DNA from: Octopus vulgaris
Taxonomy: Eukaryota
Length of the DNA stretch: 64,000 nt
Direction of reading: 5' to 3'
Assembly (NCBI GenBank): GCA_951406725.2
Contig: OX597831.1
Span: 36,890,001 to 36,954,000 of the forward strand
This document shows, in pieces, positions 17,241 through 60,733 of this stretch. The notes under the pieces are model-generated. The model was not told where the DNA came from, made no database searches, and saw nothing but the letters and a program-made list of their open reading frames with translations. Every line of letters begins with the position of its first letter. Position 1 is the first letter of the stretch. The position numbers and the translations under genes are program-made.

Positions 17241-17535
17241 ATATCTATACCTGAATCTCACTTGACCATTATGTTCAAACCAAGTTTGCATTTTACCATT
17301 CTACTACTTGCTTCATTAACCTCTTTCACAGCGCCAGTCTTCAGTCATCATATATCTATCTTCTTTCTATAAATGCTGCTTGTAGAATAAGAGATGAGAA
17401 CTCACTGGTTCTGTATTCAAAATCCCTTTTCATCAGCCTTCTGTCTTGCTAAGTATTATTGGTCTCCCCATTAAGGCAATGAGGTGGCAGAATCATTGGC
17501 ACACCAGGTAAAATACTTAACAGTATTCTGTCCGG

Positions 17536-17910
17536 AGTAAAGATTATTTGCCAACATAACATAGCAGTCCTGGTTTAGGACAAATGCCGTCCAACCCATG
17601 TTAGCATGGAAAACGGACGTTAAACGATGATGATGATGATGATGATGATGATGTTGCTGTAATTTAGCCCCAGGAGACATCGTCTCCAGCTGGCTATATG
17701 ACATGATCTGTGTTCTTATATTTTCGAACAAGGGAATCTAGCACCCCCACTCAGCTCAAAACAATATCTGTGTATTGCGATTTCTGGGTTATTTCTCTTC
17801 ATCAGCACAGAATAATTGTTCAGCTAGAGGACTGCCATGTTATGTTGGCAAATAATCTTTACTTCAAAGTACTGTTGCTGAATATCTCTCGTTGTGAGAT
17901 TTACAAATAT
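17536..17910. mobile_element. Family B element with inverted arms and HHR at 17767-17811 (-), containing a nested RTE-type tail at 17587-17650
   Basis: Homologous to the 30172-31131 arms; inversion junction at about 17828. Confidence 0.7.
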
Positions 17911-20454: not shown

Positions 20455-20582
20455 CATTGAAAAATACCTTAGGAATGAAAACCCAGGTTCGAAATTTCCC
20501 CAAGACACCTGATGAAGGCTGGAGGGTATATCAGCTGAAACGTTGTGTTAACAACAAACAAGATGAGGACAAATATACGTCA
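20385..20582 (+). mobile_element. Family A tail after (TAC)n(TAA)n, head missing
   Basis: Tail matches 52577 onward. Confidence 0.75.
20504..20549 (+). ncRNA. Minimal type I hammerhead ribozyme (family A, best-preserved copy)
   Basis: GACAC-CTGATGA-A-GGCTG(gagggtatat)CAGCT-GAAA-CG-TT-GTGTT: stem I, core, stem II and palindromic AACGTT stem III. Confidence 0.75.
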
Positions 20583-29908: not shown

Positions 29909-30318
29909 CATGCATACATAAATGCATATGTATGTATATATAAATGTCAGATTTCGATAATGACAACTAGTAAAAGTCCATGAGAGTCATTACAATTCTT
30001 CATGATGTCATGTTGTAACAAATTTAAAAGCAAGACAAATAATTTTCACAGATAGCTGCAGACATCTTTTAACTTTATCATTATCACAAGCATGATAACA
30101 AGAATTCTGTATGTATAGAAGACAAGACAAATTACTCTTTTGCTGAATGAAATCTAGAAGTGATGTAATCCTCGAGTAAAATCTGTTTGACAACATAACA
30201 TGGAAGTTTAGGATGAATGTTGCTGTAATTTAACCCCAGGAGACATCATCCCAGCTGGCTATATGACACGATCTGGGAAACAAGGGAATCTAGCACCCTC
30301 ACTAAACTCGAAACAATA

Positions 30319-30363
30319 TCTGTGTATCGTGATTTCCAGGCTATTTCCCTTCATCAGCACAGA
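30319..30363 (-). ncRNA. Minimal type I hammerhead ribozyme (family B)
   Basis: TCTGTG-CTGATGA-agggaaatagcctg-GAAA-TCACGA-TA-CACAGA. Confidence 0.65.
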
Positions 30364-30547
30364 ATAACTGTTTGGCTAGAGGTGGCAATGCCAAATTCCC
30401 AAAACAATATCTGTGTATTGCGATTTCCGGGTTATTTCTCTTCATCAGCAAAAAATAATTGTCCAGCTAGAGGTGGTACTGCCAAATTCCCAAAACTATA
30501 TATTTCAAATGGGAATTTGGCAGCACCACCACTAGCTGAACAATTAT

Positions 30548-30592
30548 TCTGTGCTGATGAAAGGAAATAATCTGGAAATCGTGATACACAGA
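30548..30592 (+). ncRNA. Minimal type I hammerhead ribozyme (family B)
   Basis: TCTGTG-CTGATGA-aaggaaataatctg-GAAA-TCGTGA-TA-CACAGA. Stem III consensus ATCGCGAT is palindromic; stem II is weak in this copy. Confidence 0.65.
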
Positions 30593-30629
30593 TATTTTTT
30601 TGAGCTGAGTGGCGGTGCTAGATTCCCTT

Positions 30630-30945
30630 AATAAATAAAATAACAAAATAAAAACATTGTGTACAGTGCTCAGGTGCACTACAACTCATCTAAAGTGTAC
30701 GTATAATCAGGTGTAGTTTCGACACAAAGGATGCAGTGTCATGGCAGTCAACAACTGACGCAGGCAGTTTGTTCCATGCTTCAGCAACTCTGAGCGTGAA
30801 AAAATGTTTCCGAAAGTCATGGGAGCTGTGTTGTTTTCTGACTTTGTAGGCATGTCCACGTGTGTTAGACACATGAAGATCAAAAATGTGTTCAGTGTTG
30901 TTGTTGGTGAGGTAGTTGATAACTTTGTGGGTGTTTACCAAGTCC
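30630..30945 (-). mobile_element. CR1-clade LINE 3' end (truncated)
   Basis: TRGHAYKVRKQHSSHDFRKHFFTLRVAEAWNKLP matches the CR1 ORF2 C-terminal motif; short 3' UTR and (TTTA)-type tail. Confidence 0.85.
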
Positions 30946-31518
30946 TTGTTCAAAAAAATGTAAGGACACTGATCATATCTTATAGCCAGCTGGAGACGAT
31001 GTCTCTGGGGCTAAATTACAGCAACATTCGTCCCAAAACAGGACTGCCATGTTAAGCTGGCAAACAACCTTTACTCTAAAGAAAATGTGGCTAAATATCT
31101 CTCATTGTGATATTTAAAAATAGTAATTTTCTGATGCAATTCTCCTTAAAAATATAGGAAGAGAAATTTGACTTAGAATCTGACACAGAAAAATAATAAT
31201 CTTGAGACTGATTATTATTCAGAAGAGAAAATGAGGAGAGGCATTTTCTCACTCTAGAATTACCAGAAATTCTTTTACACTCATAGTTTGAAGATTTCCT
31301 TGAAGTTTTGTGAATGTAGAACTGATACAACACAGACTCATGGAATTGCACATATTGATTACAAAATTCCTGCAAATATATTTCTAAACTTGTATCTATC
31401 AATTTTCCGATCTTGCCTCAAGCTTTCTATTAACTTCTTAATCAAAGTTTCAAACTGACTACTTTAATTAACATAAACCAGACTGAACACTTAAAGACTT
31501 TAAAAGATAATTTTCCAA

Positions 31519-43170: not shown

Positions 43171-43551
43171 TTTTGTAGTAAAGATTGCTTGCCAACATAA
43201 CATAGCAGTCCTGGTTTAGGATGAATGTTGCTGTAATTTAGCCCCAGGAGACATTGTCTCCTACTGGCTAAATGTCAGGATCTGCGTCATATTTTTTAAC
43301 AAAGGAATCTAGCACCCACAGGAGCTCAGATACTGTTTTGAGGTGAGTTGGGGTGCTAGATTCCCTTGTTCAAAAATATAAGGACACAGATCGTGTTGTA
43401 TAGCCAGCTGAAGGCGATGTCTCCTGAGGCTAAATTACAGCAACATTCATCCTAAACCAGGAGTGCCATGTTACGTTGGCAAACAACCTTTACTACAAAG
43501 AACTGTTGCTGAATATCTCACGTTGTGAGATTTAAAAATAGTAATTTTCTA
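43171..43551. mobile_element. Family B fold-back derivative lacking the HHR
   Basis: ~160-bp inverted arms (43171-43328 / 43340-43500) plus the unpaired 3' extension ending ...aatagtaattttctag. Confidence 0.7.
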
Positions 43552-50639: not shown

Positions 50640-52357
50640 TTCTTTGTAAGCCTAGTACTTATTCTATGAGTCACTTTTGCCAAACTGCTTAGTTACAGGG
50701 GACATAAACACACCAACTCTGGTTGGCAAGCGATGGTGGTGGCACAAGTGCAGACACAGACAGACATGCACACACACACACACAAATATATATATACAAT
50801 GGGGTTCTTTCAGTTTCCATCTAAAAAATCCATCTAGAAATCTTTTGTCAGCTTGAGGATATAGTAGAACACACTTGCCCAACACATCACGCTGTAGGAC
50901 AGAACCTGGAACCATGTGGTTAGGAATATATATATATATATATAGGTGCAGGGGTGGCTGTGTGGTAAGAATCCCGGATGCCCTCTGAATGGCCTCTGCA
51001 GATAGCTGTGGAGGTCATAACGTTGCACCTGTTTATGATGCTGGACAGACTAAAAGAGGAATATCGCTCGTGGCTGTGTAACACCAACTCAGACCCCGCC
51101 GTGATTTTAAATGAAGCATGGGTTATATTAAGGGTGTATGTATCTGTGGAGTGCTCAGCCACTTGCATGTTAATTTCATGAGCAGACTGTTCCATTGATC
51201 GGATCAACTGGAACACTCATCATAACCAACAGAGTGCCATGTATTTTACTTGAACAAAGTGAAAAACTGACTTCAATTTGAACTCAGAACATAAAGCTAT
51301 GTGGTTAAATAACTTCAGTTCATTTTATCTGCCTGTTTGTCATTTCTGCTATATGCCACTCTAATGAAATTACAACATCATAAAACTTTATGGCTAATAA
51401 TTATTTTTCTCTCACTAAAATCAAGATTAAAATTACATGTGTCTGCATAACAAATGGTATCTGGCCGTTAAGCTTTAGCCACCCTCTGTTATTTAAGGAA
51501 AGACTCAATGATATTGGTCAGTGTGTGTAAGAGTGATGCATATACTCGTATAATCATGCACATTGAATTGGATGTTGTTTGCTGGAGATTATTTTAATTT
51601 CAATTGATTAAAATCATCGTTAAATATCAGATGGGGAAAGATCAGGAAATGCAGAGGTCAGACCTGATAAAGTTAACTTCAAAGACAAAAAAAAATGAAA
51701 AGAGAAGAGGAAAAAAAAAAATGACACCGAGCTGAAACACATGGAGAGAACACTGATTGCAGCTCTCAGATATTTTCTATTCATGTTTGGATGGAAAAAT
51801 GGCAATGGAAATGATGATCATCATCAAGATACAAATATTGACCTTGTTTTCATTTATTTAACAAGCTCATATAAAAAAAAAAAAATAATTTTTAAACGGT
51901 TTTTATAATGAAAATATCAACATTGAAGTAAAAAAATTTCATTTTACCAAAGATAGACTTAATGAATTCCAACAAAAGCAAGAAAATTCAGATTTCTCAG
52001 GATGAGTTTTACAGGAGGCTAACATTGTTATGTTCTTCAGCTCAAAATATGACGGTTGCTTACACTAACTCCTTCTCCTCTCCTTTGCCTTCTTCTTCCC
52101 ATGGGCTTTAACAATTTCCCTAAGTTCCTAAAACCCAGTTTCATCACTGAGGTATGGCCTGTTACTACATGTCAGTAATTTTCTACCCTCATCATCATTC
52201 AACATTTGTGTTTTATACTGGCTTGGGTTGGACAGTGCAATAGGATCTGATGAGCCAGAGGACTGGTTTGAGCTCTGTAATCTGCCACTACATGGTTTCT
52301 AAGAACTTTTGCAATAAATCTGTTTTATTTTCTTATTGCTAGTAAGGCTGTCCTTTT

Positions 52358-52524
52358 TATATTATTTACATTTGATGGATATTTATCCTCATCTTTGTTG
52401 TTAACACAATGTTTCGGTTGATATACCCTCCAGCCTTCATCAGGGCATATGGTGTAGTGGTTAAGAGTACGGGCTACTAACTCCAAGATTCTGAGTTTGA
52501 TTCCAGGCAGTGACCTGAATAAGG

Positions 52525-52578
<54 letters not shown>

Positions 52579-52762
52579 TCGAAAAATACCTTAGGAATGA
52601 GAACTCAGGTTTGAAATTTCCTCAAGACACCTGATGAAGGCTGGAGGGTATATCAGCCGAAACATATGTTAACAATAAAAAGGATGAGGACAAATACCCA
52701 TCAAATGTAAATAATATAAATAATGCAAATAATGTACATAATTCCTGATCTCTTAAATATAG
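52358..52762 (+). mobile_element. Family A element: inverted partial tail + tRNA-like head + (AAT)n + hammerhead-containing tail
   Basis: Head at 52443-52516 with A box TGGTGTAGTGG and B box GAGTTTGATTCC, then (AAT)n, then tail with CTGATGA at 52631 and GAAA at 52659. Inverted tail copy at 52358-52444. Flanks AGGCTGTCCTTTT / AGGTTGTCATTTT. Confidence 0.8.
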
Positions 52763-60552: not shown

Positions 60553-60733
60553 TTCTATAGTTAAGAGATGAGGAATTATGTACATTATTTACATTATTTA
60601 CATTTGACGGATATTTGTCCTCATCTCGTTTGTTGTTAACACAACATTTCGGCTGATATACCCTCCAGCCTTCATCAGGTGTTTTGGGGGAATTTAAAAC
60701 CTAGGTTCTCATTCCTAAGGTATTTTTTCGATG

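What the first reader, a model, noticed from the sequence alone, without database searches (positions are those of the whole stretch)
30172..31131. Family B: tandem and inverted hammerheads able to form a dimeric ribozyme
Seen: two same-strand HHRs ~91 bp apart plus a third in the opposite orientation. Consensus UCUGUG-CUGAUGA-A-GGG(aaauaa)CCC-G-GAAA-UCGCGA-UA-CACAGA. Known: minimal PLE hammerheads cleave as dimers through the palindromic stem III. Inference: a coding-less PLE pLTR insertion preserving the tandem geometry needed for cleavage, later hit by a CR1 at gattccctt|gttc.
Basis: partly seen in the sequence, partly recalled or inferred. Interest (0 to 1): 0.7.

Follow-up and report, generated by a model that had tools for sequence, protein, structure and literature searches.

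The report
Decayed two-armed hammerhead retrozyme insertion

Summary
Three hammerhead motifs and the LINE insertion are as described. The locus (30174-31132, 12-bp target duplication) is one decayed insertion of a dispersed, non-coding 353-nt unit with one type I hammerhead per unit: a non-LTR retrozyme, not a pLTR stump. The 91-bp tandem is local (0 of 135 other loci; natural spacing 353), has a broken helix I and mismatched palindromes, and is predicted to be buried by the inverted arm, so it preserves no cleavage geometry. At family level the ribozyme is well supported: sister families (about 60% identical) swap helix I, the helix III palindrome and the C3-G8 core pair compensatorily, and the family-majority tandem folds into a double hammerhead. 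Cleavage is untested and the 10.1-11.1 pair is a mismatch. Inverted insertions pair one short-ended with one long-ended arm in 85 of 87 cases, with 8-15 bp duplications and junction microhomology: the Penelope signature, best explained by priming from both target strands. No autonomous partner was found. Tx1-type LINEs insert 5 nt before helix I. The scan noted both the two-start pairing and the Tx1 targeting before, on other DNA of this genome.

The parts
30162..30173 (.). Left copy of the 12-bp target-site duplication
   Evidence: 10 of 12 identical to 31133-31144
30174..30400 (-). Left arm, main piece: unit positions 278-353 then 1-171; its outer end is at fixed site A (about 172 nt after the predicted cut); two small deletions
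   Evidence: 83% to family majority including gaps
30319..30363 (-). Hammerhead motif 1; core and helix I intact, helix III palindrome broken by CpG decay; predicted cut between 30325 and 30324
30401..30491 (-). Local 91-nt duplication (unit positions 278-353, 1-16)
   Evidence: shares no non-CpG derived change with its neighbour, so about as old as the insertion
30410..30454 (-). Hammerhead motif 2; core intact, 2 of 6 helix I pairs broken, palindrome broken
30492..30629 (+). Right arm, first part (unit positions 259-353, 1-43); begins at the head-to-head joint
   Evidence: 92% to family majority
30497..30503 (+). TATA-like word 31 nt upstream of the Tx1 nick position; candidate promoter element of the unit (inferred)
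   Evidence: same spacing as the TATA word of a U6 gene cluster of this genome; A/T-rich word at this spacing in 7 other retrozyme stretches; no PSE match seen
30548..30592 (+). Hammerhead motif 3; core and helix I intact, helix II and III carry G-U changes; predicted cut between 30586 and 30587
30630..30943 (-). 5'-truncated 3' end of a CR1-type LINE with an A/T-rich short-repeat tail, inserted after unit position 43
   Evidence: the clade name rests on recalled C-terminal motifs, no tree was made
30944..31132 (+). Right arm, second part (unit positions 40-228); outer end at fixed site B, 55 nt beyond site A (the one-sided 'tail')
   Evidence: 88% to family majority
31133..31144 (.). Right copy of the target-site duplication
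17534..17909 (.). Second insertion of the same family in the window (minus arm ending at site A, plus arm ending at position 216); hammerhead motif at 17767-17811 minus
43172..43551 (.). Third insertion of the same family (site A arm and site B arm, no hammerhead)

Best explanation
The locus is a decayed head-to-head insertion of a dispersed 353-nt non-coding repeat carrying one type I hammerhead motif per unit (a non-LTR retrozyme), likely mobilised by a borrowed Penelope-like enzyme that would prime copying from both nicked target strands at two fixed sites of the RNA. Steps: (1) inferred: a source copy longer than one unit is transcribed from a TATA-type start about 20 nt before helix I; (2) predicted: two hammerheads pair through the palindromic helix III and cut out a unit-length RNA, which is probably circularised; (3) shown in genomic copies: reverse transcription runs through the cut site and beyond one unit, so the template was a circle or an uncut multimer; (4) inferred: the endonuclease nicks both strands about 8-15 bp apart, one 3' end starts at site A and the other at site B; (5) inferred: the two cDNAs anneal by short homology at their growing ends and are filled in, giving two inverted arms, a tail on one side only and a target duplication. 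In this copy a template slip at the joint repeated 91 nt, and a CR1-type LINE later landed in the right arm; the copy is predicted to be catalytically silent.
For: Unit and dispersal: (1,800 exact 21-mer hits; 29 of 54 unselected arms match exactly, so roughly 3,300 arms or 1,900 insertions). Non-coding: longest ATG frame 28 aa, 41% GC. Ribozyme design: between families B and C 5 of 6 helix I pairs, 3 of 4 helix III pairs and 3 of 5 pairs of the helix I extension change on both sides; further families use other palindromes (CTGCAG, CCCGGG, CACGTG, CCGCGG, CTAG) and one uses the U3-A8 core pair. Family-majority tandem: double hammerhead 0.9 kcal/mol above the minimum, 12 below two monomers. Whole unit folds with z about -7.9 (B) and -7.2 (C). 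Fixed outer ends: 85 of 87 inverted loci with both ends at A or B are A+B (49 of 50 in the contig-1 set not selected on ends). Target duplications: longest shared word 9.5 vs 4.6 nt in shuffled pairs, 55 of 78 at least 8 nt. Joint overlap of 2 nt or more in 71 of 111 vs 30% of 300 simulated joins. The two arms share 38 derived changes in 9,179 sites, above all 300 shuffles. 52 of 59 arms that reach position 20 continue past the cut site; 12 of 157 segments exceed one unit. Literature: inverted pLTR with one-sided tail and 8-10 bp duplications in Penelope elements (PMC3846280, passages; PMC8557442, passages); a purified PLE protein cuts and extends both strands and starts at two internal sites (PMC11167929, parts 1-2 of 4).
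Against: No cleavage, circle or protein was shown. Position 10.1-11.1 is A-G in this family (C-A, U-U, A-U or G-C in sisters); PMC3088659 (passages) calls this the most conserved pair after 15.1-16.1 and rejected mismatched hits. PMC11167929 found the PAc hammerhead dispensable for insertion in vitro and saw no RNA ends at its cut site. No autonomous element with homology to the unit was found among 38 GIY-YIG loci or in 352 flanks. At the commonest variable site (position 160) the two arms disagree in 12 of 63 scored insertions against 7 shared changes, which fits one template only if many of these arose later. 26 of 111 joints have a gap rather than an overlap. 23 of 110 inverted loci have at least one end away from A or B. 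RNA reads of a related species lie on both strands about equally with no pile-up of ends at the cut site. The covariation counts rest on two families and so on few independent events.
Confidence: 0.72

Rival explanations
1. One reading: a truncated pLTR of an autonomous PLE whose 91-bp tandem of hammerheads is kept because it forms an active dimer at this locus.
For: Both minus-strand cores are intact; the inverted arm with a one-sided tail is a PLE signature.
Against: 91-bp spacing in 0 of 135 other loci; helix I of copy 2 is broken, the two palindromes pair at only -2.4 kcal/mol against -10.1 for the family word, dimer probability about 0; each of the three copies has 8 changes in 91 nt from the family; no parent found.
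Confidence: 0.05
2. Same element, but the inversion arises by self-priming or fold-back on an antisense template (the model of PMC3846280), not by two target-primed starts.
For: The unit has long internal stems, and some joints overlap by 13-65 nt; 26 of 111 joints have gaps.
Against: Inner ends are spread over the whole unit and uncorrelated between arms (Spearman about 0), most joints show only 1-8 nt overlap, and fold-back alone does not explain why one outer end is at A and the other at B in 85 of 87 cases.
Confidence: 0.1
3. The repeat is PLE-mobilised but its hammerhead no longer cuts (mismatch next to the core); templates are uncut read-through multimers and the motif is a relic or a protein-binding fold.
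For: A-G at 10.1-11.1 (30 of 34 rows unpaired at this position); no stop of reverse transcription at the cut site; no read ends there; 8 of 9 frog retrozyme dimers did not cleave in vitro (bioRxiv 10.64898/2026.07.22.740005, part 3).
Against: Core, helix I, helix III palindrome and the C3-G8 / U3-A8 pair are kept across families about 40% diverged; a circular template also gives no stop; tandem sources with two hammerheads are rare (2 of 135 loci).
Confidence: 0.2
4. The repeat is moved by the Tx1-type LINEs found in it, by L1-like twin priming.
For: Tx1-type elements are tightly associated with the unit and make 14-15 bp duplications.
Against: These LINEs insert at one sequence inside the retrozyme, whereas retrozyme copies land in unrelated AT-rich sites; the unit has no poly(A) or LINE-like 3' end; the two arms overlap in sequence, unlike the non-overlapping pieces of L1 twin priming (recalled).
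Confidence: 0.04

Closest known systems
Metazoan non-LTR retrozymes (coral, mussel, axolotl; PMC7229834, passages and Discussion; vertebrate survey bioRxiv 10.64898/2026.07.22.740005, parts 1-3 of 5)
   Same: Non-coding unit of about 350 nt, under 45% GC, one type I hammerhead per unit with a short palindromic helix III, head-to-tail continuity across the cut site, PLEs proposed as mobilisers.
   Different: Described mainly as tandem arrays; here copies are dispersed, mostly two-armed and inverted, with fixed paired ends and target duplications; 10.1-11.1 is a mismatch; circles and cleavage not shown; no homology to a PLE end found here, whereas 24 of 57 Xenopus families had homology to a transposon, nearly all PLEs.
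Endonuclease-bearing Penelope-like elements: PAc (Poseidon of Anolis; PMC11167929) and Adineta Penelope (PMC3846280); structure summary in PMC8557442
   Same: Inverted 5'-truncated arm, a tail on one end only, 8-10 bp duplications, hammerhead upstream of two internal reverse-transcription start sites, AT-rich targets.
   Different: No ORF; tail about 55 nt rather than 30-40; PMC11167929 saw no difference of start site between strands in vitro, whereas genomic copies here pair A with B almost strictly.
Minimal PLE hammerheads (min-HHR; PMC4209133, parts 1-2 of 4) and the dimeric variants of Lunse et al. 2017 (not held; seen only as a citation and summary in PMC6765202)
   Same: Type I topology, palindromic helix III, predicted dimer requirement, U3-A8 core variant in a sister family.
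   Different: Helix I is 6 bp with a long extension, helix II is 3 bp plus a closing mismatch rather than 7-8 bp with one bulged base and G10.1-C11.1. The other hammerhead family in the window (20504, 60638) fits min-HHR better.
Target-specific Tx1-clade LINEs (Tx1L in Tx1D, Keno in U2, Tx1-Mar in Mariner-N4; PMC4494074, passages)
   Same: APE-RT LINEs that insert at one spot of a multicopy repeat, with tandem re-insertion at the same site.
   Different: The target here is a hammerhead retrozyme; not found in paper searches; Repbase could not be searched. Not present in this window; the LINE in the window is a CR1-type fragment at another position.

Membership tests
Type I hammerhead ribozyme | Conserved core C3 U4 G5 A6 N7 G8 A9, G12 A13 A14, A15.1-U16.1, H17 | tested here: met
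   All three window copies; 27 of 42 full spans in the contig-1 set
Type I hammerhead ribozyme | Three helices supported by compensatory change | tested here: met
   (helices I, III and the extension; helix II is mostly invariant)
Type I hammerhead ribozyme | Base pair at 10.1-11.1 | tested here: not met
   A-G in this family; C-A, U-U, A-U, G-C in sisters
Type I hammerhead ribozyme | Match to an Rfam hammerhead model | tested here: not met
Type I hammerhead ribozyme | Self-cleavage at H17 | not testable with these tools
   No read-end pile-up in cDNA libraries of a related species, which is a weak test
Minimal PLE hammerhead (min-HHR) | Helix II of 7-8 bp, helix I of 4-5 bp, one unpaired base before G10.1-C11.1, helix III nearly absent | tested here: not met
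   Helix I 6 bp, helix II 3 bp, helix III 2 bp plus 4-nt palindromic loop against PMC4209133
Non-LTR retrozyme | Non-coding unit of a few hundred nt, low GC, one type I hammerhead per unit | tested here: met
   353 nt, 41% GC, longest ATG frame 28 aa
Non-LTR retrozyme | Head-to-tail repeats with at least two hammerheads | tested here: inconclusive
   2 of 135 loci hold two or three same-strand hammerheads 353 nt apart; 12 of 157 segments exceed one unit; no long array among those fetched
Non-LTR retrozyme | Abundant linear and circular unit-length RNA | not testable with these tools
   Available raw reads are standard cDNA libraries of another species
PLE-mobilised insertion | Head-to-head inverted arm with a tail on one end only | tested here: met
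   110 of 135 loci inverted; 85 of 87 with both ends at fixed sites are A+B
PLE-mobilised insertion | Short target-site duplication, AT-rich target | tested here: met
   55 of 78 with 8 nt or more; flanks 70% AT vs 62% background
PLE-mobilised insertion | Homology to the pLTR of an autonomous RT plus GIY-YIG element | tested here: inconclusive
   None among 38 GIY-YIG loci, all translated ones Neptune-like; other PLE clades were not sampled
Autonomous PLE | ORF with RT and GIY-YIG domains | tested here: not met
CR1-type LINE (inner insertion) | C-terminus of an RT ORF and short-repeat 3' tail | tested here: met
CR1-type LINE (inner insertion) | Placement in the CR1 clade by RT phylogeny | not tested
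   Name rests on recalled motifs

The most novel reading that the evidence does not exclude
A superfamily of about 355-nt RNA circles in this genome, each with a dimer-dependent hammerhead that tolerates a mismatch beside its core, is written into DNA by a Penelope-type dimer whose two RT subunits start on one RNA at two set sites, one per nicked strand, and finish by annealing their cDNAs; this would explain the long-unexplained inverted-pLTR-plus-one-tail structure of PLEs and give direct genomic evidence that retrozymes use PLE enzymes. The same circles are in turn parasitised by Tx1 LINEs that land at their likely transcription start, 5 nt before helix I.
Probability: 0.45. Interest if true: 0.72.

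Novelty: new variant of a known kind. Interest (0 to 1): 0.48.

Why it matters
The locus itself is a dead copy and its tandem is incidental. The family is useful because published links between retrozymes and PLEs rest on co-occurrence and end homology, and the origin of PLE inverted/tail structures is listed as open (PMC8557442, PMC3846280). About 1,900 short insertions with two fixed, strictly paired ends give a compact RNA (one 353-nt unit) with mapped start sites for testing two-strand priming in the existing in vitro PLE system, and a natural series of hammerheads with different palindromes and different 10.1-11.1 combinations that standard searches would reject.

Tried and rejected
Rfam at gathering score and at E up to 10: no hammerhead; the miRNA-type hits are the inverted-arm hairpin. 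Excess conservation of the core within the family: none. A stop of reverse transcription at the cut site: 8 of 52 arms end in the 10 nt just past it in the contig-1 set, 10 of 98 overall, not clearly above the 0.5-1% per nt background. Autonomous parent: two Neptune-type families with long ORFs show no similarity to the unit; the one hit (L181) was a sister retrozyme inserted nearby; flanks share no ORF continuation except the Tx1 elements. Expression: no RNA holder listed on record. RNA reads of organism B (1,900, 1,636 and 1,457 laid) mirror genomic coverage on both strands; organism B lacks the young sister family E (0 reads in 2 runs), so it is another species. A-to-I editing of the inverted arms: an A>G / T>C excess was not accepted because C>G, C>T and A>C changes reach the same 20-40% frequency, pointing to a few highly transcribed copies or species differences. 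A covariance model was not used for a genome search, so further sister families were sampled only by patterns. The A/B test in family C is uninformative because its loci were selected on long-ended arms. A PSE-like match between the unit and U6 upstream regions was not seen; only the TATA spacing agrees. Paper searches for octopus or cephalopod retrozymes, for 10.1-11.1 mismatches, for Tx1 with hammerheads and for twin priming in Penelope gave nothing on point. Supplements of the cited papers were not read; alignments of PLE hammerheads there could hold this motif.

Full report
Observation. The region holds a 91-nt direct repeat and an inverted third copy. A motif scan finds type I hammerhead layouts at 30319-30363 (minus) and 30548-30592 (plus); the copy at 30410-30454 has the core but a damaged helix I. 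Rfam finds no hammerhead. The piece 30630-30943 is the 3' end of a LINE: 1,292 candidates in the genome, one with an RT domain, 96% identity over 73 aa; 'CR1' is from recalled motifs. The genome is 2.8 Gb in 227 contigs; that it is an octopus is an inference from repeat content and earlier scan notes, not tested.

What the element is. Genomic copies define a circularly permuted 353-nt unit with one hammerhead; I number it from the predicted cut. It is 41% GC and its longest ATG frame is 28 aa. A 21-mer has 1,800 exact hits and the reversed control none; 29 of 54 arms not selected on this word match exactly, so about 3,300 arms or 1,900 insertions, a rough figure. Copies are a median 4.4% from the majority at non-CpG sites, and the catalytic core decays at the background rate (24 of 556 vs 1,263 of 26,958): they are dead on arrival. 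The window insertion spans 30174-31132: a minus arm (positions 278-353, 1-171), a 91-nt repeat (278-353, 1-16), a plus arm (259-353, 1-43), the LINE, and the rest of the plus arm (40-228), between 12-bp duplications matching at 10 of 12. Two more insertions lie at 17534-17909 and 43172-43551.

The 91-bp tandem. In 135 other family loci (12 duplicates and the window's own locus dropped), 84 hold a hammerhead; same-strand spacing is 353 nt in 2 loci and never 91. The two tandem copies differ at 14 of 91 sites and share only a CpG change, so the repeat is about as old as the insertion. Both joints continue with near-identical 10-nt words (9 of 10; sequence), which suggests a template slip (inference). 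Folding: the forced double hammerhead of 30300-30480 minus keeps 22 of 26 pairs and lies 17.7 kcal/mol above the minimum; with the inverted arm included it is 71 above; the two decayed palindromes pair at -2.4 kcal/mol against -10.1 for the family word. The locus is therefore not a working dimer.

Is the hammerhead real at family level? A search for GIY-YIG elements led to a sister family C (357 nt, 222 of 369 aligned columns identical, colinear over the whole unit). On 34 natural copies (20 B, 14 C), 5 of 6 helix I pairs, 3 of 4 helix III pairs and 3 of 5 pairs of the helix I extension change on both sides; slid controls fall to 25-53% paired against 89%. These are two lineages, so few independent events. 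A degenerate pattern gives 772 hits, control 0, and shows more families with other helix III palindromes (CTGCAG, CCCGGG, CACGTG; also CCGCGG and CTAG) and a family with the U3-A8 core pair that PMC4209133 reported in Schistosoma. The family-majority tandem forms the double hammerhead 0.9 kcal/mol above the minimum and 12 below two monomers. The unit folds as a long extension of helix I closing a branched domain, z about -7.9 and -7.2. Against: position 10.1-11.1 is A-G here (C-A, U-U, A-U, G-C in sisters); PMC3088659 rejected such hits and knew only U-U as a tolerated natural mismatch. The layout is the canonical metazoan type I, not min-HHR.

How it inserts. Outer (3') ends cluster at two sites, A (about 165-181) and B (about 223-234); inner ends are scattered. 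Of 135 loci 110 are head-to-head; 87 have both ends at fixed sites, and 85 of these are A+B, 1 A+A, 1 B+B; 23 have an end elsewhere. In the contig-1 set, taken from the first 100 of the 1,800 pattern hits and not selected on ends, it is 49 of 50 (P about 5e-14). Target duplications: mean longest shared word 9.5 vs 4.6 nt, 55 of 78 at least 8 nt. Joints overlap by 2 nt or more in 71 of 111 against 30% of 300 simulated joins (P 6e-5), but 26 have gaps. Arms of one insertion share 38 derived changes in 9,179 sites (0.41%) against 0.14% on shuffling, maximum 0.34%, so they come from the same source, though 12 of 63 disagree at position 160. 52 of 59 arms reaching position 20 run on past the cut site and 12 of 157 segments exceed a unit: the template was a circle or an uncut multimer. 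Inverted arms with a one-sided tail and 8-10 bp duplications are PLE signatures (PMC3846280; PMC8557442), and a purified PLE protein cuts and extends both strands and starts at two internal sites that delimit the tail (PMC11167929). I infer priming from both strands, one at A and one at B, with the cDNAs joined by microhomology. PMC3846280 proposed self-priming on an antisense template instead; the strict pairing and scattered inner ends favour the two-start model.

Partner. 148 GIY-YIG matches exist; 38 loci examined include intact 781-aa Neptune-type ORFs but none resembles the unit. Flank comparison found no ORF continuation. The partner is unidentified.

A parasite of the repeat. Four family loci switch to LINE sequence at unit positions 309-312. 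A near-full APE-RT element sits at the equivalent spot of a sister family with a 14-bp duplication, and a deleted one in family B with a 15-bp duplication; in both the top-strand break is 5 nt before helix I. For the young LINE family 28 of 30 fetched 3' ends are followed by retrozyme sequence and the other 2 by the same target word (one of the 30 is the query). For the older family 21 of 30 have a BLAST match to the unit (6 family B proper, 15 another sister), 9 have none, several of these showing only the target word (one is the query). 'Tx1' is by domain order and recalled resemblance; no tree was made. This LINE is not in the window.

Expression. Reads of a related species cover the unit on both strands about equally, follow genomic coverage and show no end pile-up: passive read-through, uninformative on circles.

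Relation to what is known. The element works like, and on sequence criteria belongs with, metazoan non-LTR retrozymes (PMC7229834; bioRxiv 10.64898/2026.07.22.740005). It differs in being dispersed as two-armed PLE-style insertions and in the mismatch beside the core. I found no paper on cephalopod retrozymes, on strict pairing of PLE ends or on Tx1 targeting of hammerhead repeats; Lunse et al. 2017 was not held, supplements were not read, and Repbase was not available. The scan had already noted the two-start pairing in other retrozyme families and the Tx1 targeting in this genome; my counts were made before reading those notes, and the notes are not independent support.

Verdict. Observation confirmed; interpretation partly supported. 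The locus is an ordinary dead copy with an accidental mini-tandem; the family is a new variant of a known kind with a testable mechanism. Interest 0.48.

Noticed in passing
L216:2000-7228 (G000:C2:109084500-109089730); L236:383-2156; L240-L299: Tx1-type LINE families insert 5 nt before hammerhead helix I of this retrozyme superfamily, with 14-15 bp duplications and tandem re-insertion; 28 of 30 and 21 of 30 fetched 3' ends lead into retrozyme sequence.
   Followed up: yes
L187-L235, L240-L299: At least six sister retrozyme families of about 352-358 nt with different helix III palindromes, different 10.1-11.1 combinations and one U3-A8 core; family E looks young and is absent from the RNA runs of organism B.
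   Followed up: partly
window 20504-20549 (+), 60638-60683 (-), near 52325-52621: A second hammerhead family with the min-HHR layout (longer helix II, bulged A, G10.1-C11.1), next to trinucleotide microsatellites; no similarity to family B.
   Followed up: no
L178:406-4087, L180:81-3781: Recently active Neptune-type PLE with an intact 781-aa RT plus GIY-YIG frame preceded by a long upstream frame (479 aa in L180) in another phase; many near-identical copies. A hammerhead-like word with U3-A8 core and a CATG palindrome but weak helix I lies about 60 nt before its 3' end.
   Followed up: partly
G000 contig C1: Family B hits are strongly clustered: about 37 of the first 100 listed hits lie in the first 7 Mb and about 27 at 103-113 Mb, with few between.
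   Followed up: no
L020:1198-1896: Two adjacent units are 99% identical to each other while both are about 95% from the family: a recent local tandem expansion.
   Followed up: partly
L313-L317 (G000:C1:139.42 Mb): Tandem cluster of a variant U6 gene with an octamer at about -80 and TATA at about -30.
   Followed up: partly
unit positions 76-108 (window about 30982-31015): A hairpin whose outer arms are identical in several families while the inner stem changes compensatorily (4,088 pattern hits, control 0); a candidate protein-binding site upstream of sites A and B.
   Followed up: partly
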